From assembly GCA_001770415.1 (NCBI GenBank), contig MEQX01000015.1:31453-74633 (forward strand): 43,181 nt of DNA, read 5' to 3'. The notes under the pieces are model-generated. The model worked only from the letters and a program-made list of their open reading frames with translations, searched no databases and was not told the DNA's origin. Of this stretch, positions 4,811 to 13,326 are shown one piece after another; position 1 is the first letter of the stretch, and every line of letters begins with the position of its first letter. The translations under genes were made by a program, and so were the position numbers. The stretch comes from Betaproteobacteria bacterium RIFCSPLOWO2_02_FULL_63_19 (GTDB lineage: Bacteria; Pseudomonadota; Gammaproteobacteria; Burkholderiales; SG8-39).

Positions 4811-6018
4811 CGAGTACTGCAGAAATCGTCTGGACCGAAGACGGCGCCGAGCGCAGGGCGCGATGGCATTCGGAAGCCGCGCTGCCGGCGCCCCCGCGTG
4901 TCGTGGTCGCTGACGACCGGATCAGCGCTGACAAGGCCTATCGCCTGGCGTGCGAGGGAACGGCGTTGCTGTGGCGCGGCGATTTCCAGAATGCGCGGCA
5001 ATTGGTGCGGGCGCTGGCGACGCGCATCGATCGCAGCACCGGCCCGGGAACGGCCAAGCCGGACGCCGCAGAATTCCCCGGGGCATTCCATCGCTACCGC
5101 ATGGCGCGCGCCCAACGCGCACGCACCCTTGGCATGCTGCTGATCCCGATCGATGCAGGCCATGCCATTCCGTTGCGCCGGGCACCGGACGTACGGATTG
5201 CGTGCACCGAAGCATACGGCAACGTCGATGCACCCTACGTCATTTCGCTGCGCGAACTGCTTGGCGTGATCGGCGCGCATGAGTGGCGGCGCAAAGGGGT
5301 GGACGTGCTGGGCGACGGAGTGCGTATTCATGCGCACTACGGTGTGTTCTCGCCGATGCGCGCCGAATATGTCGAACTCGCCGCACGAGCGCCGCTGCCG
5401 AAAGCCAAGCTCGTTTTTGATATCGGTACTGGGACCGGCGTGCTCGCGGCGCTGCTCGCGCGGCGCGGCATCGAGCGCGTGATTGCGACCGACGTGGATG
5501 AGGCTGCACTGGCCTGCGCGCGCGAAAACCTGGGCCGGCTGGGGCTTCTGGATCGCGTGCAGGTGATCGAGGCCGATCTGTTTCCGCCCGAAGCGGCGGG
5601 GTGTGCCGATCTGATCGTCTGCAACCCGCCGTGGCTGCCGGGCAAGCCGACCTCCCGGCTGGAATGCTCGATCTACGATCCGGAGAGCCGCATGCTGAAG
5701 GGCTTTCTCGCGGGGCTCGGCGCCCGGCTTGCACCGGGGGGCGAGGGCTGGTTGATTCTCTCCGACTTCGCCGAGCATCTCGGACTTCGGACGCGCACGG
5801 AACTCGAAGGCTGGTTCGACGCCTGCGGCCTCAAGGTGCTCGGCCGCCTCGAGGCGCGGCCGCGGCACCCCAAGGTTTTCGATGTCGTCGATGCGCTGCA
5901 TGCGGCGCGACAGGCGGAAGTGACGTCGCTGTGGCGGCTGGGCGCGTCAACGCCTGTCCCGATGCGGCGATCCGGAACTCCAAGCGTTGATGCGGGTCAA
6001 CCCGCCCCCGACGCGTGA
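4807..6018 (+). CDS. Class I SAM-dependent methyltransferase (NPPW motif) with about 200-aa N-terminal extension
   Basis: The ORF track gives 4690..6018, which overlaps the upstream gene. An in-frame TTG at 4807 overlaps the upstream TGA stop in a TTGA arrangement. The C-terminal half has a SAM-binding motif (VFDIGTGTGVLAA), a D-loop (ATDVD) and a CNPPWLPG amino-methyltransferase motif. The exact start codon is uncertain. Confidence 0.6.
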   Translation: MTSTAEIVWTEDGAERRARWHSEAALPAPPRVVVADDRISADKAYRLACEGTALLWRGDFQNARQLVRALATRIDRSTGPGTAKPDAAEFPGAFHRYRMARAQRARTLGMLLIPIDAGHAIPLRRAPDVRIACTEAYGNVDAPYVISLRELLGVIGAHEWRRKGVDVLGDGVRIHAHYGVFSPMRAEYVELAARAPLPKAKLVFDIGTGTGVLAALLARRGIERVIATDVDEAALACARENLGRLGLLDRVQVIEADLFPPEAAGCADLIVCNPPWLPGKPTSRLECSIYDPESRMLKGFLAGLGARLAPGGEGWLILSDFAEHLGLRTRTELEGWFDACGLKVLGRLEARPRHPKVFDVVDALHAARQAEVTSLWRLGASTPVPMRRSGTPSVDAGQPAPDA

Positions 6019-6084
6019 GCTGAGAATGGGGGGCGATAGGGGCCGCCCCGAACGGCTTCCGCAGGCTCTACATAGGAGACGACG

Positions 6085-7338
6085 ATGAAATACAACCGAC
6101 CGCATGCCACCGCCGCCTGGGGCACGATGGCCAAGGACTGGGAACTGGGCGTCGATTACGCGAGGCTGATTCGCGAACGCTTCCAGCGCGCACAGGCTTC
6201 GGTGAAGTCTTCCGGGCTGGGCGCGGTACTGTGCTTCAACGTCGACAACGTGCGCTACGTTACCGGCACGCATATCGGCGAGTGGGTGCGCGACAAATTC
6301 GATCGCTACGCGCTTTGCCCTCGCGAAGGCGAGCCGTATCTCTGGGATCCCGCTCCTCCGGCCAAGCGCATCAGCTCGCCGTGGATCGCCGATCGGGTCG
6401 CCGCCCCGGTCAGCACCATGCAGGGCGCGCTGCCGCCGAATATGCGCGTGCAGGACGATTTTGCGCGCCAGATCAGGAAGAAGCTCGCCGATTACGGCGT
6501 GGACAAGCAGCCGCTCGGCGTCGACCTGGTGGAGCTGCCGATGCTGCGGGCGCTGGAAAAGGAAGGCATCGAAGTGGTCGACGGGCAGCAGGCGATGCTC
6601 GATGCGCGCGAGGTGAAGACGGCCGACGAAATCGAGCTGCTGAAAGTCGCCGCCGGGATGGTGGATGCGACCTACGTGGACATCGCCCGCGCGATCCGCC
6701 CCGGCACGCGCGAAAACGAACTGGTGGCGATCGCGCACGACCGCCTGTTCCGTCTGGGCTCGGAGCGCGTCGAGTGCGTCAATTCGGTCGCCGGGCCGCG
6801 CGGCAAGCCGCATTCGCATACCTTCTCTGACCGGATCATCCAGCCCGGGGACATGGTGTTCCTCGACATCATGCATTCGTACAACGGGTATCACACCTGT
6901 TACTACCGCACTTTCATCTGCGGAGAACCGAACAAGTACCAGCTTGAAGCCTACGAACTGTGCTCCAGGTGGGTCAGCGCGTCGATCGACGCCATCCGTC
7001 CCGGGGTCAGCGTCGACGAAGTCGCCTCGGTGTGGCCGGAGGCGGCCGAATTCGGCTACAAGGACGAGGAAGAAGCGTTCCTGCTGCAATACGGCCACGG
7101 CATCGGTCTGTCGCTCTGGGAGCGTCCGATCATCACGCGGCGCTTTCGCGGCCAGAACACGGTGTTGAAGGAAGGCATGGTGTTCGCGGTGGAATGCTGG
7201 AAAGGCGCCGAGGACGGATCGGGCGCAGCACGCATCGAGGAAGAAGTGGTGGTTACGCGCGACGGTTGCCAGGTCATCACCAACTTCCCGTCAGACCACC
7301 TGATCTCGTGCGGCTTGCCGGGCTGCGAAGTGTTCTAG
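6085..7338 (+). CDS. M24-family metallopeptidase (Xaa-Pro dipeptidase / creatinase-like)
   Basis: 417 aa with a creatinase-like N-terminal domain and a pita-bread C-terminal domain (FLDIMHSYNGYHTCYYRTF, YGHGIGLSLWE). Confidence 0.75.
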   Translation: MKYNRPHATAAWGTMAKDWELGVDYARLIRERFQRAQASVKSSGLGAVLCFNVDNVRYVTGTHIGEWVRDKFDRYALCPREGEPYLWDPAPPAKRISSPWIADRVAAPVSTMQGALPPNMRVQDDFARQIRKKLADYGVDKQPLGVDLVELPMLRALEKEGIEVVDGQQAMLDAREVKTADEIELLKVAAGMVDATYVDIARAIRPGTRENELVAIAHDRLFRLGSERVECVNSVAGPRGKPHSHTFSDRIIQPGDMVFLDIMHSYNGYHTCYYRTFICGEPNKYQLEAYELCSRWVSASIDAIRPGVSVDEVASVWPEAAEFGYKDEEEAFLLQYGHGIGLSLWERPIITRRFRGQNTVLKEGMVFAVECWKGAEDGSGAARIEEEVVVTRDGCQVITNFPSDHLISCGLPGCEVF

Positions 7339-7488
7339 ATTGCGCCACCGCGCCGGCACTCGGGCGGCAGGGAATCGACGAGGAAGACCGTTTCCGCGTG
7401 TACGACGACAGGCGTGATTGTGATCGACTGGGGCAATAGCCCCGGCACGCATCGATCTATGGCTATCGTCGAGCCGGTGGCGCGTCCG

Positions 7489-8991
7489 CTACGGATACGT
7501 TGCGGTCGTGCCGTCGTTCAGGTGCCAAGCCTGCGTTGAAAAATCCTTGGAGACCAAAGCCTCCGGGCAGCCGTAAGGACATGGAACGCAGGACGATTTC
7601 CCGAAGTCCGAGAGTTCGCCTACGATCAGGTCGCTCGTATTTCGATAGGTCCTAAATCCCGTACGCAGGCTGCTGGCCGCAACCACCTCGCAAAGCGCCG
7701 AATCGCTTGCAGTCGGGGTGGCCGAGAGCGCGTCGGCGAGATCGTTGCCGATGCGGTACGCAAGCTGGGAAGGCAGCGGGTCGAGGCTGCCGCGCTGCAG
7801 GAGATCCCACGCATGCGCTCCGGCCAGTTGCACCGACCAGGGCACCCCCAGTGAGCGCGAAACGAATCCGAATTCGATGTCGTTGTCGATGTGCGAGATC
7901 ATGCATTGTCCGCACAGCGTGAACGTCGAGGTGTGACCGGTCCCTGAGCAATTCGCGGTCGGACATACGGCATTATTCTGCAGGTCTCTCAAGCTGCCGG
8001 TTACGAAGTCCATGTTTGTACCGTTGCTGGCGACAAACCTCGTTCCATCGTACATGCCGCGTTCGGAGTCGGGCAATGCCTGCAGACGCTGGTGCATGAT
8101 CTTCAGACGGGCGAAGAAAACACTGGTAATGTCAGGACCGCAATAGTCTGTCCCGGACGGAACCGATGCATTGATCGTTCCTGGCCCGATCAGGTTTTCG
8201 TCGACAGTGATGACAAGACCATAGCCGCAATTGTGCGGCGCCGGATCGGGGTATGCGCCGGCGCCGTCGATCGATATTGCGTCGCCATGCAAGTGCATAC
8301 CGGAACAGCCGTTATCCTGGCCCGCAGTTCTCCCGCCACCGATGCGCGATAGCGCAATTACGGAACCGGCGGGGAAGGTTCCCAGTGGCGAGCCGAGTTG
8401 CACCGCGGGGACGAGCGCTGCGAATTTGCCGTACGAACGCTTCTGTATGAATTCATCGGGCGCAACGGCGGCACGGAGGTCGGTTTCGCCACTCCAGATG
8501 ATGGAGGGCACGAACGTGCCGGTGCTCGATTGATAGGCGAGTTGCACGTCATAGGTTGAAGGCGTCGCCGAACCGTCGGCAAGCTCCACACCGGGCACGA
8601 ACACCGTGAAGTAACGTGTGAAATACGCCGCTGGCGAGCCGTGTTGAACACACGATTCCGTAAGTTCAGTCAGCGAAAATTCTAGTGAGGAGGCCGATAC
8701 CTGCTGGAGCACCGCCTTGTACCAGCCGTTTCCGGGGACGAATACCAAAGGGATATCCAGGCGGCCGGTCGATGGATCGTATCGCGAGGGCGTACTCGTG
8801 CTCGCACCTACCTTGTTCTTGCATTGGTCGAGGCCGGTAGTCGACGTTTGGGCATCTGCGATTCCGACGCCGCAGACGAACAGGGCAATGCATGCGAGGG
8901 GCACGACCCAGCGCCGGACCCGCGACGAGGGTCTCGTGGTCAACGGCTTGCGAGAGGGGACGTCCATCAGGAAGATTGATCCTGTATTCAT
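7489..8991 (-). CDS. Secreted hypothetical protein (possible Tat/Sec signal peptide)
   Basis: 500 aa. An AAGGAG ribosome-binding site lies 8 nt before the ATG at 8991. The N-terminus reads ...SRVRRWVVPLACIALFVCGVGIADAQ. The protein is Cys-containing and Gly/Ser/Thr-rich, with no family I can name. Confidence 0.6.
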   Translation of the reverse strand: MNTGSIFLMDVPSRKPLTTRPSSRVRRWVVPLACIALFVCGVGIADAQTSTTGLDQCKNKVGASTSTPSRYDPSTGRLDIPLVFVPGNGWYKAVLQQVSASSLEFSLTELTESCVQHGSPAAYFTRYFTVFVPGVELADGSATPSTYDVQLAYQSSTGTFVPSIIWSGETDLRAAVAPDEFIQKRSYGKFAALVPAVQLGSPLGTFPAGSVIALSRIGGGRTAGQDNGCSGMHLHGDAISIDGAGAYPDPAPHNCGYGLVITVDENLIGPGTINASVPSGTDYCGPDITSVFFARLKIMHQRLQALPDSERGMYDGTRFVASNGTNMDFVTGSLRDLQNNAVCPTANCSGTGHTSTFTLCGQCMISHIDNDIEFGFVSRSLGVPWSVQLAGAHAWDLLQRGSLDPLPSQLAYRIGNDLADALSATPTASDSALCEVVAASSLRTGFRTYRNTSDLIVGELSDFGKSSCVPCPYGCPEALVSKDFSTQAWHLNDGTTATYP

Positions 8992-9154: not shown

Positions 9155-10594
9155 TTAGCGCACCGTGAATCTCAGAGGATTCGGACTATAGACGAGCTGA
9201 CCGCTGGTCAATCGATACCCGCAGAAAACCGAATAATCGGCAGGAGGGAGTTGAGTCTGCGCAACCAGATTCGTATTGACAGTGGCTTGAAGGCCCACGC
9301 TTCCATAACCGCGAAGATCCGCTAGCTGTCCGCTCCAAGGCTGCCATCCGTTGCTGGTCAGCATGAACCACAATTCTCCCGGCTCGATCAACGCCACCGC
9401 AAGCAGATCGGCCAACCGATCTCTGTCGGTCGCACCGACAGAGATCGTCACGCCGAGGGAAATCTTGGTTTCCTTGGGGATTTCGCTCCCGGACACCGTA
9501 GGAAGCTGGTTACCTGTCAACCCGAATGCGACCGTCGTCGCGGTAGCGCCAGGCGTGCCATCCGCGTTAATCACGGACCCAGCCTGGACTTCACCCAAAA
9601 GCGCGCTGCAATTTGATGTTGATCCGCCGTTGGAACCCGCGCACGACCATGTCCACGGACCGGAACCGGAAACGGAACTGGCGGAGCCTGAACTGCACAG
9701 TTCAACGCTCGGCGCAGAGGAAACGGCGCTACCGTCACTGGAGCCGCAGACACCGTTTACGGGGACGGATGCCAAGCTAGCGGAGCAGAACGCGTTCGAA
9801 CCGCCGTCGGACCCCGCGCACGACCACGCCCATGGACCGGATCCGGAAACGGAGCTGGCGGACCCTGAACTGCACAGTCCCGCGCTCGGCGCGGAGGATA
9901 CGGTGCCGCCGTCACTGGAGCCGCAGGCACCGTTAACGGGAACGGGTGCCAGGTTCGCGGAGCAGGACGCGGTGGAACCGCCGTTGGAGCCCGAGCACGA
10001 CCACGTCCATGGACCGGAACCGGAAACCGAACTGGCGGATCCCGAACTGCACAGTCCCGCGCTCGGCGCGGAGGATGCGTTGGCACCATCGCTGGAGCCG
10101 CAGGCACCGTTAACGGGAACGGGTGCCAGGCTCGCGGAGCAGGACGCGGTCGAACCGCCGTTGGAGCCCGAGCACGACCACGTCCACGGACCGGAACCGG
10201 AAACGGAACTGGCGACACCCGAACTGCATAGTCCGGTGCTCGGTGCGGAGGATACGTTGGCGCCGTTGCTGGGGCCGCAGGCACCATTGACCTGGGCAGA
10301 CGAATTCGCAGAGCAGTTCGTTGATGTCCCTCCATTTTGACCCGCGCAGGTCCAAGTCCATGGACCGCTGCCGAGGACGGAACCCACAAGCAATACGTCC
10401 CCAGGTAAGCACAGGTCGGAGTTCGGCACAGTGGAAAAAGTACCACCGTTGCTGGTGCCGCATTGCCCTGGACAATCGCTACTAGTGCTACAAGCGGTAC
10501 CCCAGTCCCAAGCAAACGCAACTTCAATACAGGCAAACGAAACGACCAGCACGTAAAGCGCCCTGCACAAGCACTTGGTTCGAGACATCATCAA
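9155..10594 (-). CDS. Secreted cysteine-rich tandem-repeat protein (4-5 copies of a 59-aa, 4-Cys repeat) with a C-terminal domain shared with the neighbouring RCC1 protein
   Basis: 479 aa. Signal peptide CRALYVLVVSFACIEVAFA. Repeat unit is about VPVNGACGSSDGANASSAPSAGLCSSGSASSVSGSGPWTWSCSGSNGGSTASCSASLAP. The start may be a TTG at 10592-10594 or the ATGs 3 or 6 nt inside. Confidence 0.7.
   Translation of the reverse strand: MMMSRTKCLCRALYVLVVSFACIEVAFAWDWGTACSTSSDCPGQCGTSNGGTFSTVPNSDLCLPGDVLLVGSVLGSGPWTWTCAGQNGGTSTNCSANSSAQVNGACGPSNGANVSSAPSTGLCSSGVASSVSGSGPWTWSCSGSNGGSTASCSASLAPVPVNGACGSSDGANASSAPSAGLCSSGSASSVSGSGPWTWSCSGSNGGSTASCSANLAPVPVNGACGSSDGGTVSSAPSAGLCSSGSASSVSGSGPWAWSCAGSDGGSNAFCSASLASVPVNGVCGSSDGSAVSSAPSVELCSSGSASSVSGSGPWTWSCAGSNGGSTSNCSALLGEVQAGSVINADGTPGATATTVAFGLTGNQLPTVSGSEIPKETKISLGVTISVGATDRDRLADLLAVALIEPGELWFMLTSNGWQPWSGQLADLRGYGSVGLQATVNTNLVAQTQLPPADYSVFCGYRLTSGQLVYSPNPLRFTVR
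9590..10297. repeat. Four near-identical 177-bp coding tandem repeats (plus one degenerate copy extending to about 10465)
   Basis: The 59-aa periodicity shows in the minus-strand protein. It is mirrored in the plus-strand shadow ORF 9351..10340 (EPPLEPEHDHVHGPEPETELADPELHSPALGAED... repeated). Boundaries were computed from residue positions. Confidence 0.7.
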
Positions 10595-10677: not shown

Positions 10678-13326
10678 ATGAATTGGAGGTCCCTCCGGGT
10701 ACAGGCACGTATTGCGTTCGGTCTCGGCGCGCTTTGTCTTGGGGGCATTACATTCGCCGCGCCACCTCGACTGGCCGCCGGCGATACATTTTCGATGGCG
10801 CTGAGCACCAACGGCGAGGTATACGCGTGGGGCAGCAACATCTTTTCGCAACTGGGCGACGGCACGGGCGCGTTTAACCCCAACCCCTCCATAGCGGCCG
10901 TCGTGCCGGGCGTGAGCCGAATCGCCGGCGGAAACCAATGCAGCTACGCTTTGATGGAAAACGGGACGCTCTGGGCCTGGGGTGACAACACCAACGGACA
11001 ACTCGGTGACGGCACCACGCGGTCACACATCAACCCTGTTCGCGTTACGGGTATTCAAGAGCCCATCCTTGGTGTTGCCTCTGGCGCACGTCATGCACTT
11101 GCCGTCGATCGGAACGGCCAAGTCTGGGCTTGGGGTTCCGGCGACTACGGTCAACTGGGTCGCGAGACGACGCGCATCGAATCCACGCCATTGCCGGTGA
11201 ACGGCGTGCCACAGGCGACTGCGGTATCCGCGGGCGTCTATCACTCGCTGGCGCTTGCTGTCGATGGCACGGTGTGGGCTTGGGGGTACAACGCCGACGG
11301 AGAGCTCGGCAATGGCGGCACTACCAATAGTGCATTGCCAACCAAGGTGGCGGGCTTATCAAACATCGTTTCGATCGTGGCGGGCGCATACCATAATTTG
11401 GCGCTGGATCGAGATGGCACGGTCTGGGCTTGGGGGTTTGGAGGATCCGGCCGCCTTGGCGACGGTAGCAGCCAGACCAGGACGACGCCGGTCATGGTGC
11501 AGGGGTTGCCGATCGTCGCAAGTATTGCCGCGGCCAACATGAGTGCAGCGATCGATCGCGATGGCGCGGTATGGTTTTGGGGAACCAATCTATACGGCCA
11601 GTTCGGCGAGGCTGGAGTCGAAACCTCATTGCTGCCTCGAAAGAACGCAGGCTTGAGCGCCCTTCGAATCGCCGAGCTGGGATTCGGCTGGTATCACGCG
11701 ATCGCGCGTACGGCAGATGGAAAAGTGCTTACGTGGGGTGGCAATGAGCTTGGACAAATCGGCGATGGAACAATTGCAACGAGCACCGTGCCACTTGAGA
11801 TTTCGCAAATTGACCATGCCATACAGGTGAGCGCAAGCGGACAGCATACCTTTGTTGTCGATGCCGACGCGAACGTGTGGGCGTGGGGGGCCAACGGCAG
11901 CGGCCAACTCGGCGATGCGACGGTAGCACTGAGTAATCTTCCCAAGGCAGTACTTGGGCTCTCGGGAATCGCGGACATCGCGGCGGGTGGCTATCATGCC
12001 CTTGCGCTCGACGTTGGAGGGCATCTTTGGTCGTGGGGTGACAACACCAATGGACAGCTCGGGGATGGCACTACAGGTATGCACGCAATACCCCAGCAAC
12101 TCGCCGAGCCGGCGAACGCCGTGGCGATAGCGGCCGGTCGCGAATTCTCCATCGCGATGGATTCGAACGGCGAAGTCTGGTCCTGGGGGCGCTACCTGAA
12201 TGGACAATTGGGTCGAATAGGAAACAGTCTCGTACCGGCGAAGATATCGGGACTCCCCAAGGTGAAGGCGATAAGCGCGGGGGCCGAGCACGCGTTGGCA
12301 GTCGACGTCGATGGCGGCGTTTGGGCATGGGGGCGTAACGCGGACGGCAACCTCGGCGACGGCGAAACCAAGGACAGGAGTGTTCCGGTACGTGTTACGG
12401 GCGTGCCTCCGCATATCTTGGTTGCCGCGGGGCAGTATCACAGCCTTGGGCTTGCCGCCGACGGCACGGTTTGGGCGTGGGGCAGAAACAGTGATGGTCA
12501 ACTCGGAGACCAGACAACTGACGAAAGGCGCGTGCCGACAATGGTGCCTGGACTGGCAGAGATCGTCGGGATTGCAGCTGCCGGGAGCCACAGCCTGGCA
12601 TGGTCGTCAGACGGAACATTGTGGGCCTGGGGGAGCAACGAAGACGGCCAACTTGGCGCAGGCAGTAGTTCTCGTATTGTTACGTCGCCCGTCGGAATCG
12701 GCGACATTGGTCGAATTACGCATGCGGTTGCAGGATCCAGACATACACTTGCAACGCGCGAAGACGGATTGGTTTGGGCTTGGGGGCGCAATTTCGAGGG
12801 CCAACTGGGCGACGGGACCTTTGCAGCCTACAACCAGCCGGTTCTCGCGGTAAACCAGACTCTCACTGGCGTTCTCGACCTGAATTCCTTGGTCACCGAC
12901 AGCATCCCGACCGGGAAATACCCGCCGTTTCTTGCCAGGGCCACGCGGACCGGGGACTTAAGCGGATTGTCGCTCTCGGTGGAGGTCAAGGGCATCTCAA
13001 TAACAGGGATTTTCGCCTCCGAGATGGGCCGATTCGCGGCCACCTACAATGTCTATGTCGGAGCCAGCGTTTCCTCGGGCGGCACGCCAATCTATTTTCA
13101 ACTCGATGCAATCAACACTTGGAGCACTCTACGATTGCCGATGGCGGAATATCTGCGCGGGGTGACGCTGGACAGCCAAAACGATGTGGTCACGGCACAG
13201 CTTCTTCAGAACGTTGACCTTTCGGGGCTTCCCGGGGCCGAAATTCTAGTGGGGTACGGAACCGATTCAGACGAGATGCTGGGAAGCAAGCGCTACAGAG
13301 TCATTTTTACCGTGCCGGCGCAGTAG
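10678..13326 (+). CDS. Secreted RCC1-repeat (beta-propeller) protein with about 150-aa C-terminal non-RCC1 domain
   Basis: 882 aa. A GAGGTGG ribosome-binding site precedes the ATG. The signal peptide is RIAFGLGALCLGGITFAAP. At least 13 repeats follow the pattern GxxHSLALxxDGxVWAWGxNxxGQLGDGT. The C-terminal tail resembles the C-terminus of the 9155..10594 protein. Confidence 0.85.
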   Translation: MNWRSLRVQARIAFGLGALCLGGITFAAPPRLAAGDTFSMALSTNGEVYAWGSNIFSQLGDGTGAFNPNPSIAAVVPGVSRIAGGNQCSYALMENGTLWAWGDNTNGQLGDGTTRSHINPVRVTGIQEPILGVASGARHALAVDRNGQVWAWGSGDYGQLGRETTRIESTPLPVNGVPQATAVSAGVYHSLALAVDGTVWAWGYNADGELGNGGTTNSALPTKVAGLSNIVSIVAGAYHNLALDRDGTVWAWGFGGSGRLGDGSSQTRTTPVMVQGLPIVASIAAANMSAAIDRDGAVWFWGTNLYGQFGEAGVETSLLPRKNAGLSALRIAELGFGWYHAIARTADGKVLTWGGNELGQIGDGTIATSTVPLEISQIDHAIQVSASGQHTFVVDADANVWAWGANGSGQLGDATVALSNLPKAVLGLSGIADIAAGGYHALALDVGGHLWSWGDNTNGQLGDGTTGMHAIPQQLAEPANAVAIAAGREFSIAMDSNGEVWSWGRYLNGQLGRIGNSLVPAKISGLPKVKAISAGAEHALAVDVDGGVWAWGRNADGNLGDGETKDRSVPVRVTGVPPHILVAAGQYHSLGLAADGTVWAWGRNSDGQLGDQTTDERRVPTMVPGLAEIVGIAAAGSHSLAWSSDGTLWAWGSNEDGQLGAGSSSRIVTSPVGIGDIGRITHAVAGSRHTLATREDGLVWAWGRNFEGQLGDGTFAAYNQPVLAVNQTLTGVLDLNSLVTDSIPTGKYPPFLARATRTGDLSGLSLSVEVKGISITGIFASEMGRFAATYNVYVGASVSSGGTPIYFQLDAINTWSTLRLPMAEYLRGVTLDSQNDVVTAQLLQNVDLSGLPGAEILVGYGTDSDEMLGSKRYRVIFTVPAQ

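What the first reader, a model, noticed from the sequence alone, without database searches (positions are those of the whole stretch)
9590..10465. Secreted protein built from 59-aa cysteine-rich tandem repeats (177-bp DNA repeats)
Four almost identical 59-aa units are present, plus a degenerate fifth. Each has four Cys in a fixed pattern (NGxCGxSxGxxxSSAPSxGLCSSGxASSVSGSGPWxWSCxGSNGGSxxxCSA) with a conserved GPWTW core and a Gly/Ser-rich low-complexity context. The protein has a signal peptide. I cannot assign the repeat to a named domain family from memory. The near identity of copies 2 to 4 at the DNA level implies recent expansion and possible copy-number (phase) variation, as in surface adhesins.
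Basis: seen in the sequence. Interest (0 to 1): 0.6.

Follow-up and report, generated by a model that had tools for sequence, protein, structure and literature searches.

The report
Secreted protein with uncatalogued four-cysteine repeat
A groundwater betaproteobacterium encodes an exported protein whose core is a rod of five small disulfide-bonded beta modules; the module belongs to a very large family that no domain database used here names, and the gene was called on the wrong strand in public annotations.

The parts
9155..10594 (-). Complete CDS of the repeat protein (479 aa from TTG 10594; ATG codons at 10591 and 10588 are equally possible starts)
   Evidence: purifying selection in this frame (26 syn: 16 nonsyn); more than 1,100 homologues
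10511..10594 (-). Sec-type signal peptide, aa 1-28 (MMMSRTKCLCRALYVLVVSFACIEVAFA | WDWG)
   Evidence: manual n/h/c-region analysis; pLDDT below 50 as expected for a signal peptide
10475..10510 (-). Short N-terminal cap of the mature protein (aa 29-40, WDWGTACSTSSD). Cys35 may pair with the extra Cys41 at the start of unit 1
   Evidence: 21 Cys in aa 41-337 = 5x4 + 1; the pairing is inferred
10307..10474 (-). Repeat unit 1 (aa 41-96), divergent, 3-aa insertion between Cys2 and Cys3
   Evidence: E = 8.7e-18
10133..10291 (-). Repeat unit 2 core (aa 102-154)
9956..10114 (-). Repeat unit 3 core (aa 161-213); the unit missing in the 4-unit allele L080
9779..9937 (-). Repeat unit 4 core (aa 220-272)
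9602..9760 (-). Repeat unit 5 core (aa 279-331)
9155..9601 (-). Orphan C-terminal region (aa 332-479 plus stop), putative head or effector domain. No homologues outside the sister strains and not modelled
10092..10130 (-). 39-bp exact direct repeat, copy A (linker plus start of unit 3); junction of the 177-bp deletion allele
9915..9953 (-). 39-bp exact direct repeat, copy B (linker plus start of unit 4)
9351..10340 (+). Spurious antisense ORF (329 aa) that public gene callers annotated instead of the real gene
7489..8991 (-). Co-directional downstream gene: 500-aa hypothetical protein with a signal-peptide-like N-terminus (OGA19280.1), possibly co-transcribed. Context only
10678..13326 (+). 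Divergent neighbour: 882-aa RCC1-repeat beta-propeller protein with a signal-peptide-like N-terminus. Context only

Best explanation
The gene encodes a Sec-exported modular protein. After the 28-aa signal peptide is removed, five tandem 53-aa modules form the core. Each module has four invariant cysteines (presumably two disulfides made in the periplasm) and a Trp-x-Trp strand, and short linkers join the modules. Together they form a stiff, uncharged, Ser/Gly/Ala-rich rod about 300 residues long. The rod carries a lineage-specific 148-aa C-terminal domain that is probably the functional head. The module belongs to a very large prokaryotic family that is absent from every domain and structure library searched here. 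In that family it serves as a spacer or stalk between an export or anchor element (signal peptide, type IV pilin N-terminus, archaeal class III signal, OmpA-like domain) and a head domain (glycoside hydrolase, adhesin-like or propeller). Array length and internal unit sequence change in frame through unequal homologous recombination or gene conversion between units, so strains differ in stalk length and surface. Shown: gene, frame, repeat anatomy, family size, lack of database matches, confident all-beta model, architecture pattern, allele differences among assemblies. Inferred: disulfides, export and final location, rigidity, stalk function, role of the C-terminal domain, recombination mechanism.
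For: Anatomy is. Frame: 62% of natural substitutions are synonymous against 27% expected, and third-codon-position changes are enriched. Family: 1,159 hits in the word-indexed search, 5,633 representatives at E <= 1e-3 with up to 29-44 units per protein, and 121 loci in reference genomes (78 distinct loci returned) spanning CPR, Alpha-, Beta- and Gammaproteobacteria, Bdellovibrionales, Nitrospirota, Acidobacteriota and a Micrarchaeon. Fold: the single unit has pLDDT 96.3 and pTM 0.76 and is all-beta. In the full-length model the 10-residue block pLDDT stays at 87-98 from residue 91 to 330, straight through the linkers. Conservation: the columns conserved at 60% or more are Cys, Gly, Pro, Trp, Leu, Val, Ala, Ser and Asn only, with no conserved charged residue. 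Family-wide charge is D+E 2.7% and K+R 2.0%. Architecture: N_methyl pilin - array - Fib_succ_major (P0007); Class_IIIsignal - array - Gly_rich_2 (P0039); array - GP38-like (P0118); array - GH16 or GH26 (P0013, P0064); Peptidase_C1 - array (P0033); RCC1 - array (P0011); array - OmpA (P0008). Variation: L080 equals the window minus exactly 177 bp, with a 39-bp exact repeat at the junction. L085 has 4 units and L083 has 5 units with different internal units. L083 shows 6.5% divergence in units 2-5 against 0.44% in 11 kb of flank.
Against: No experiment bears on location or function. No signal-peptide predictor was run. The mature protein has no recognisable anchor (no lipobox, pilin motif, OmpA domain or sorting signal), so it could be periplasmic or freely secreted rather than surface-displayed. 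The C-terminal domain has no homologues and no confident model, so calling it a 'head' is an analogy with other architectures. AlphaFold confidence across linkers may reflect repeated-MSA effects rather than true rigidity. In some homologues the array is C-terminal with nothing after it (P0011, P0033), which fits a binding role equally well. The copy-number alleles all come from short-read metagenome assemblies. L084 has a 100-N gap inside the array, and L081, L086 and L087 end inside it.
Confidence: 0.55

Rival explanations
1. The repeat module is itself the functional element. It would be a small lectin-, CBM- or adhesin-like binding unit, and tandem copies would give multivalent (avidity) binding to a polysaccharide or to another cell's surface. 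The array would then be an adhesin, not just a spacer.
For: The family is fused to glycoside hydrolases (GH5, GH16, GH26), a polysaccharide deacetylase, a discoidin domain and lectin-like domains. It is carried on type IV pilins and archaeal pilin-like proteins, and it is frequent in episymbiotic or predatory lineages (CPR, Micrarchaeia, Micavibrio, Bdellovibrionales). There are two near-invariant Trp residues per unit. Between-strain variation is concentrated at the variable surface positions of internal units. Large, strain-variable, Cys-rich extracellular proteins in Rifle CPR genomes have been proposed to mediate attachment (PMC4736985).
Against: No conserved polar or charged residue that could form a common binding site. 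W36, W38 and C40 alternate on one strand and so share one face with a disulfide cysteine, which suggests a mini-core rather than an exposed platform (inference). Partner domains are very heterogeneous, including proteases, propellers and OmpA, as expected for a generic spacer. No match to any CBM or lectin family or fold.
Confidence: 0.3
2. The 4-unit, 5-unit and mosaic differences among related assemblies are artefacts of short-read metagenome assembly (repeat collapse or chimeric joins between co-existing strains). On this view the gene has one stable array.
For: All alleles come from short-read assemblies (MEGAHIT k141, IDBA-type scaffolds, Logan). Three contigs end inside the array and one scaffold has a 100-N gap there. 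The deletion junction is a 39-bp exact repeat that a de Bruijn graph could mis-join.
Against: L080 and L085 come from different samples and assemblers, and both give in-frame 4-unit genes with different internal sequence. L083 and L085 carry residues present in no unit of the window allele (ATI, TTM, STPSAG, GPASS, CAAS, PENG), which collapse alone cannot create. The substitutions are biased to synonymous sites. Units differ by 10-27%, which is usually enough for assemblers to resolve them.
Confidence: 0.3
3. The real gene is the opposite-strand ORF (window 9351..10340 +, 329 aa, Pro/Glu/His-rich), as public gene callers annotated it, and the Cys-repeat reading is fortuitous.
For: Gene callers chose this ORF in at least five assemblies. 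It has no stop codon across the array.
Against: The Cys frame has thousands of homologues with invariant Cys and Trp across phyla, a pLDDT-96 fold, a signal peptide and the best syn:nonsyn ratio (26:16 against 17:23). The antisense ORF is open simply because GC-rich in-frame repeats lack stops.
Confidence: 0.02
4. The module is a divergent member of an already named family that sequence and fold searches here were too insensitive to recognise. Candidates are the Myxococcus cysteine-rich repeat, PKD/Big/Ig-like domains, Rib, or a family present only in InterPro member databases, ECOD or CATH.
Confidence: 0.12

Closest known systems
Rod-forming tandem domains of bacterial surface proteins (Ig-like/Big, PKD, Rib, cadherin-like, G5-E repeats of SasG/Aap)
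Myxococcus cysteine-rich repeat (TIGR02232 / DUF4215), and the large Cys-rich extracellular proteins reported in Rifle CPR genomes (PMC4736985)
   Same: These are Cys-rich tandem repeats in large exported prokaryotic proteins. Attachment and rigidity have been proposed as functions, and strain variation has been noted in the same aquifer.
   Different: No hit to those models in Pfam or NCBIfam. The Cys spacing and motifs differ: here CG..NG...P...LC..G..S.V.G.GPW.W.C.G.NGG...C.A.
Modular type IV pilins and archaeal pilin-like proteins with C-terminal extensions
   Same: At least 11 of the top 120 homologues carry the prepilin N-methyl motif and at least 2 an archaeal class III signal peptide. 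In both cases the same repeat array follows, and then a distal domain.
   Different: The window protein has a classical Sec signal peptide and no N-methyl motif or pilin domain. It shares only the stalk module.
Linker or X modules and CBMs of secreted glycoside hydrolases
   Same: The module is found adjacent to GH5, GH16 and GH26 catalytic domains.
   Different: No CBM family match. No conserved binding residues. The window protein has no catalytic domain.

Membership tests
Uncatalogued 4-Cys 'GPWxW' repeat family (defined here by HMM/alignment A1) | ~53-aa unit with invariant C5, C22, C40, C51 and W38, near-invariant G25 (~100% of 625 units; at least 90% in the 128 diverse units of A1) and near-invariant G3, G6, P17, L21, G42, G46 | tested here: met
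   All five window units carry these residues and score E = 9e-18 to 2e-23
Uncatalogued 4-Cys 'GPWxW' repeat family (defined here by HMM/alignment A1) | Occurs as head-to-tail arrays (period ~56-60 aa) in proteins with an export signal | tested here: met
   Five units with a 58-59-aa period after a signal peptide. Homologues have 2-44 units
Myxococcus cysteine-rich repeat (TIGR02232 / PF13948) | Significant match to the family HMM | tested here: not met
   No Pfam or NCBIfam hit at E <= 1 for the protein or for 128 family units
Carbohydrate-binding modules | Match to a CBM family, or a conserved exposed aromatic or polar binding platform | tested here: inconclusive
   No CBM Pfam hit. Two conserved Trp exist, but their exposure could not be inspected because no coordinates were returned. 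No conserved polar residues
Type IV pilin / pseudopilin | N-terminal prepilin cleavage/methylation motif (PF07963) followed by a hydrophobic helix | tested here: not met
   No PF07963 hit in the window protein. The N-terminus is a Sec-type n-h-c signal with AFA|W. The motif is present in some homologues
Phase-variable (ON/OFF) surface protein | Repeat whose gain or loss shifts the reading frame or promoter spacing | tested here: not met
   Unit = 177 bp = 59 codons. The observed 177-bp deletion allele stays in frame and gives a 420-aa protein on the window's numbering (the open frame printed is 426 codons because it starts 6 codons upstream of the TTG)
Sec (SPase I) secreted protein | Positively charged n-region, 10-20-residue hydrophobic h-region, small residues at -3 and -1 | tested here: met
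   MMMSRTK / CLCRALYVLVVSFACIEV (mean KD 2.03) / A-F-A|W, by manual inspection only. No SignalP-type tool was available
Disulfide-bonded extracellular domain | Cysteines paired in disulfides | not testable with these tools
   Four invariant Cys per unit.

The most novel reading that the evidence does not exclude
The 53-aa four-cysteine GPWxW module is a previously undescribed extracellular fold. It would be shared by Bacteria and Archaea and especially used by episymbiotic or predatory lineages (CPR/Patescibacteria, DPANN Micrarchaeia, Micavibrio, Bdellovibrionales). On pilins and surface proteins it would act as a hypervariable, recombining stalk or contact element for cell-cell attachment. 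The window gene would be a free-living betaproteobacterial offshoot of that system.
Probability: 0.25. Interest if true: 0.65.

Novelty: new variant of a known kind. Interest (0 to 1): 0.45.

Why it matters
Tandem-repeat stalks in surface proteins are a familiar theme. This module, however, has at least 5,633 clusters at 50% identity and up to about 44 copies per protein, and it lacks any Pfam, NCBIfam or PDB counterpart. It sits on pilins and surface proteins of lineages whose host-attachment machinery is largely unknown (CPR, DPANN, predatory bacteria). Defining it as a family would annotate thousands of 'hypothetical' proteins. It would also flag a recurrent gene-calling error, in which the antisense ORF is called across GC-rich repeats. 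It offers a compact, confidently modelled, disulfide-stapled domain for structural work. Several cultured carriers could serve as experimental hosts: Ottowia flava, Thiobaca trueperi, Undibacterium sp. and Minisyncoccus archaeiphilus. For this particular gene the biological payoff is modest, because the function of its C-terminal domain remains unknown.

Tried and rejected
1. Pfam, NCBIfam and PDB sequence searches with the whole protein, 128 diverse units and a profile returned only noise.

3. The exact-sequence look-up of the protein with three alternative starts found nothing on record. This is explained by wrong-strand gene calls.

4. A homology search with the C-terminal 148 aa returned only the same gene. 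tblastn and phmmer against 84 related loci found nothing. BLASTP against both neighbours found nothing. The apparent extension of L012 and L024 into the C-terminus was spurious: L012 ends in an OmpA-like domain and L024 in another Cys-rich region.

5. AlphaFold did not model the C-terminal domain, which has no alignment depth (pLDDT below 50).

6. I tested whether RCC1 or the 500-aa protein is a conserved partner of repeat genes, and rejected it. Only 1 of 78 loci has RCC1 nearby. The RCC1 + p500 pair occurs without the repeat gene in L090-L092, and there are no repeats in L088-L093.

8. Literature searches by motif and by topic found no paper describing this repeat. PMC4736985 only gives a generic precedent.

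9. The promoter and terminator scan was uninformative: no sigma-70 match and no terminator between the repeat gene and p500.

10. The assembly-artefact explanation for the array itself is rejected, because it is identical in an independent assembly.

Full report
**1. Observation**

The window holds one tandem repeat: 9624-10285, period 177 bp, 3.7 copies, 88% matches. It lies inside ORF 9155..10594 on the minus strand, which is 479 aa long. The translation has five GPW[TA]W motifs and 26 cysteines.

Alignment resolves five modules at aa 41-96, 102-154, 161-213, 220-272 and 279-331. Each is a 53-aa core with Cys spacing C-x16-C-x17-C-x10-C, joined by 5-6-aa linkers such as LAPVP. Unit 1 has a 3-aa insertion.

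Units 2-5 are 75-90% identical as 59-aa units, 79-91% in the core, and 73-90% at the DNA level. Unit 1 is about 51-55% identical to the others.

The N-terminus reads MMMSRTK-CLCRALYVLVVSFACIEV-AFA|WDWG and has the n/h/c layout of a Sec signal peptide. This rests on manual inspection, as no predictor was available. The array is 27% Ser and 18% Gly, has no Lys or Arg, and has a pI of about 4.1.

**2. Source and reality of the gene**

Exact matches of neighbouring proteins identify the source as the Rifle-aquifer MAG 'Betaproteobacteria bacterium RIFCSPLOWO2_02_FULL_63_19'. A sister MAG, RIFCSPLOWO2_12_FULL_63_13, also exists. Surrounding genes are ordinary chromosomal genes.

The repeat protein itself is absent from a 15-billion-protein collection with any of its three possible starts. 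The reason is an annotation error. In the public assemblies the gene callers placed an ORF on the opposite strand across the repeats. On the correct strand, if anything, they called only the last 139 aa.

The Cys frame is the real one, for these reasons:
- It has thousands of homologues with invariant Cys and Trp.
- It gives a confident fold.
- Natural substitutions between strains are 26 synonymous to 16 non-synonymous in this frame, which is 62% against 27% expected.
- The same substitutions are 17:23 in the annotated antisense frame, and they concentrate at sense codon position 3.

The five-unit array is identical in an independent re-assembly (L079). It is nearly identical in the sister MAG (L082). 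It is therefore not an assembly artefact in this window.

**3. The module is a large family that the libraries do not name**

No Pfam, NCBIfam or PDB sequence hit was found for the protein. The same is true for each of 128 diverse units scanned separately and for a profile of them against PDB sequences.

The family is nevertheless very large. The word-indexed search gave 1,159 significant hits, all through the repeat region. A full HMMER profile search of 1.84 billion representatives gave 5,633 proteins at E <= 1e-3, 3,349 at <= 1e-10 and 872 at <= 1e-30, with up to 29-44 matched stretches per protein.

From 625 units the consensus is `VNGxCGSANGxxfsSAPttnLCsaGtaSaVsGsGPWtWtCaGsNGGtTAsCSA`. 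C5, C22, C40, C51 and W38 are invariant, and G25 is close to it (about 100% of the 625 units, at least 90% in the 128 diverse units). Every column conserved at 60% or more is Cys, Gly, Pro, Trp, Leu, Val, Ala, Ser or Asn.

Reference-genome loci with the repeat come from these groups:
- many CPR groups, including the cultured Minisyncoccus archaeiphilus;
- Alphaproteobacteria, including Micavibrio and Bradyrhizobium;
- Beta- and Gammaproteobacteria (Ottowia flava, Undibacterium, Thiobaca trueperi);
- Bdellovibrionales;
- Syntrophobacteraceae;
- Nitrospirota;
- Acidobacteriota;
- a Planctomycetales MAG;
- a Micrarchaeon.

Literature searches found no description of the module. The nearest statement is a general note that Rifle CPR genomes encode large, strain-variable, Cys-rich extracellular proteins, perhaps used for attachment (PMC4736985).

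**4. Structure**

AlphaFold2 with the 128-unit alignment models one unit at mean pLDDT 96.3 and pTM 0.76, as a small all-beta domain. In the full-length model the repeat region keeps 10-residue block means of 87-98 from residue 91 to 330, including the linkers. The signal peptide and residues 338-479 fall below 50.

No solved structure matches significantly:
- Foldseek has no hit at E <= 0.001 (best E 5.8).

The weak top hits are tandem Ig, cadherin, PKD and Rib rods. They are analogues at most. AFDB could not be searched. Disulfide connectivity could not be read because coordinates are not returned.

**5. Architecture and inferred role**

In homologues the array lies between an export or anchor element and a distal domain, or it flanks an enzyme or propeller. 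The cases checked (more) are:
- prepilin N-methyl motif - array - Fib_succ_major (P0007);
- archaeal class III signal - array - Gly_rich_2 (P0039);
- array - GP38-like adhesin domain (P0118);
- array - GH16 (P0013) or GH26 (P0064);
- papain-like protease - array (P0033);
- RCC1 propeller - array (P0011);
- array - OmpA domain (P0008).

Three observations favour a generic rigid stalk or spacer: this promiscuity of partners, the purely structural conservation pattern, and the very low charge of the family. The window protein has the same layout: signal peptide, array, then a 148-aa C-terminal region.

That C-terminal region is an orphan. Its only hit is the same gene in a sister assembly. It has no similarity to either neighbour or to any related locus. 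I take it as the probable functional head, by analogy only.

The main rival is that the units themselves bind ligands multivalently. I cannot exclude this and give it 0.3.

**6. Variation among strains**

Nine related loci were recovered through the conserved 500-aa neighbour.

| Locus | Array compared with the window |
|---|---|
| L079 | identical |
| L082 | 5 units, 2 aa changes |
| L080 | 4 units: identical over 1.7 kb apart from a clean in-frame 177-bp deletion |
| L083 | 5 units, but units 3-4 have different sequence, including residues found in no window unit |
| L085 | 4 units, with yet another internal combination |
| L084 | 100-N gap inside the array |
| L081, L086, L087 | contig ends inside the array |

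The L080 deletion has a 39-bp exact direct repeat at its junction (window 10092-10130 and 9915-9953).

In L083, divergence from the window is 6.5% in units 2-5 against 0.44% in 11 kb of flanks. It peaks at 13.6% in unit 3. The signal peptide, unit 1 and the C-terminal region have no differences.

This pattern fits unequal recombination or gene conversion within the array. All the data are short-read metagenome assemblies, however, so I give 0.3 to the view that the differences are assembly artefacts. Because 177 = 3 x 59, changes preserve the frame. This is length and sequence variation, not phase variation.

**7. Context**

The 500-aa protein with a signal-peptide-like N-terminus lies 163 bp downstream on the same strand, with no predicted terminator between the two genes. 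An 882-aa RCC1-propeller protein, also with a signal-peptide-like N-terminus, is divergently transcribed 83 bp upstream.

RCC1 and p500 form a divergent pair in another genome without any repeat gene between them (L090-L092). RCC1 is near repeat genes in only 1 of 78 loci. The repeat gene therefore looks like a lineage-specific insertion, although RCC1-array fusions do exist (P0011, L019).

**8. Verdict**

The finding is real. It is a new, uncatalogued variant of a familiar kind of protein: an exported protein with a tandem-module stalk. The family-level result is the most useful outcome. It is a large, confidently folding, unnamed four-Cys module spread across Bacteria and some Archaea, together with a recurrent wrong-strand annotation. 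The specific function of this gene remains inferred. Interest is 0.45.

Noticed in passing
window 9351..10340 (+); L079 8652-9629, L080 5933-6631, L082 8652-9362, L083 8652-9629, L085 1695-2393: Public gene callers (NCBI MAG GCA_001770545.1, ENA and JGI assemblies) annotated an ORF antisense to the Cys-repeat gene. At best they called only the last 139 aa on the correct strand. The true protein is therefore absent from protein databases. The same error probably affects other GC-rich members of this family.
   Followed up: yes
window 10678..13326 (+) and 7489..8991 (-); L090 3025-5709 / 6001-7464: The RCC1-propeller protein and the 500-aa hypothetical protein, both with signal-peptide-like N-termini, form a conserved divergent gene pair in another genome (53% identity) without the repeat gene between them. 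RCC1 is fused to the repeat array in P0011 and is adjacent or fused in L019. The function of the pair is unknown.
   Followed up: partly
window 7489..8991 (-): The 500-aa neighbour (OGA19280.1) belongs to a small family (23 hits, Burkholderiales-type MAGs including Rubrivivax) with no Pfam domain. It has many conserved Cys and a conserved 'GCSG(M/R)HLHG' motif. It may be an uncharacterised secreted enzyme.
   Followed up: partly
window 10475..10510 and aa 458 (about window 9221-9223): An extra Cys pair (C35, C41) precedes unit 1 and may form an N-terminal capping disulfide. The C-terminal region has a single, unpaired Cys458.
   Followed up: no
window 9584..10474: The array has no Lys or Arg and 27% Ser, with a recurring SSAPS(A/T)G segment around the near-invariant Pro17. 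This resembles the Ser/Ala/Pro-rich low-complexity sites used by general O-glycosylation systems of Betaproteobacteria. That comparison is from my own knowledge and is speculative and untested.
   Followed up: no
L004 and L025 (Minisyncoccus archaeiphilus PMX.108 chromosome), L053 (Thiobaca trueperi DSM 13587), L077 (Ottowia flava CGMCC 1.13650), L060 (Undibacterium sp. TJN19): Cultured organisms carry genes with this repeat, which gives experimental access to the family. The archaeon-parasitising CPR bacterium Minisyncoccus has at least two such loci.
   Followed up: no
P0118 aa 503-707; P0039 aa 367-582: Some family members end in a phage Gp38-like tail-fibre adhesin domain or a Gly_rich_2 domain. 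This hints at exchange of tip modules between phage receptor-binding proteins and cellular pilin-like proteins. The viral-contig scan could not be run with the unit alignment.
   Followed up: no
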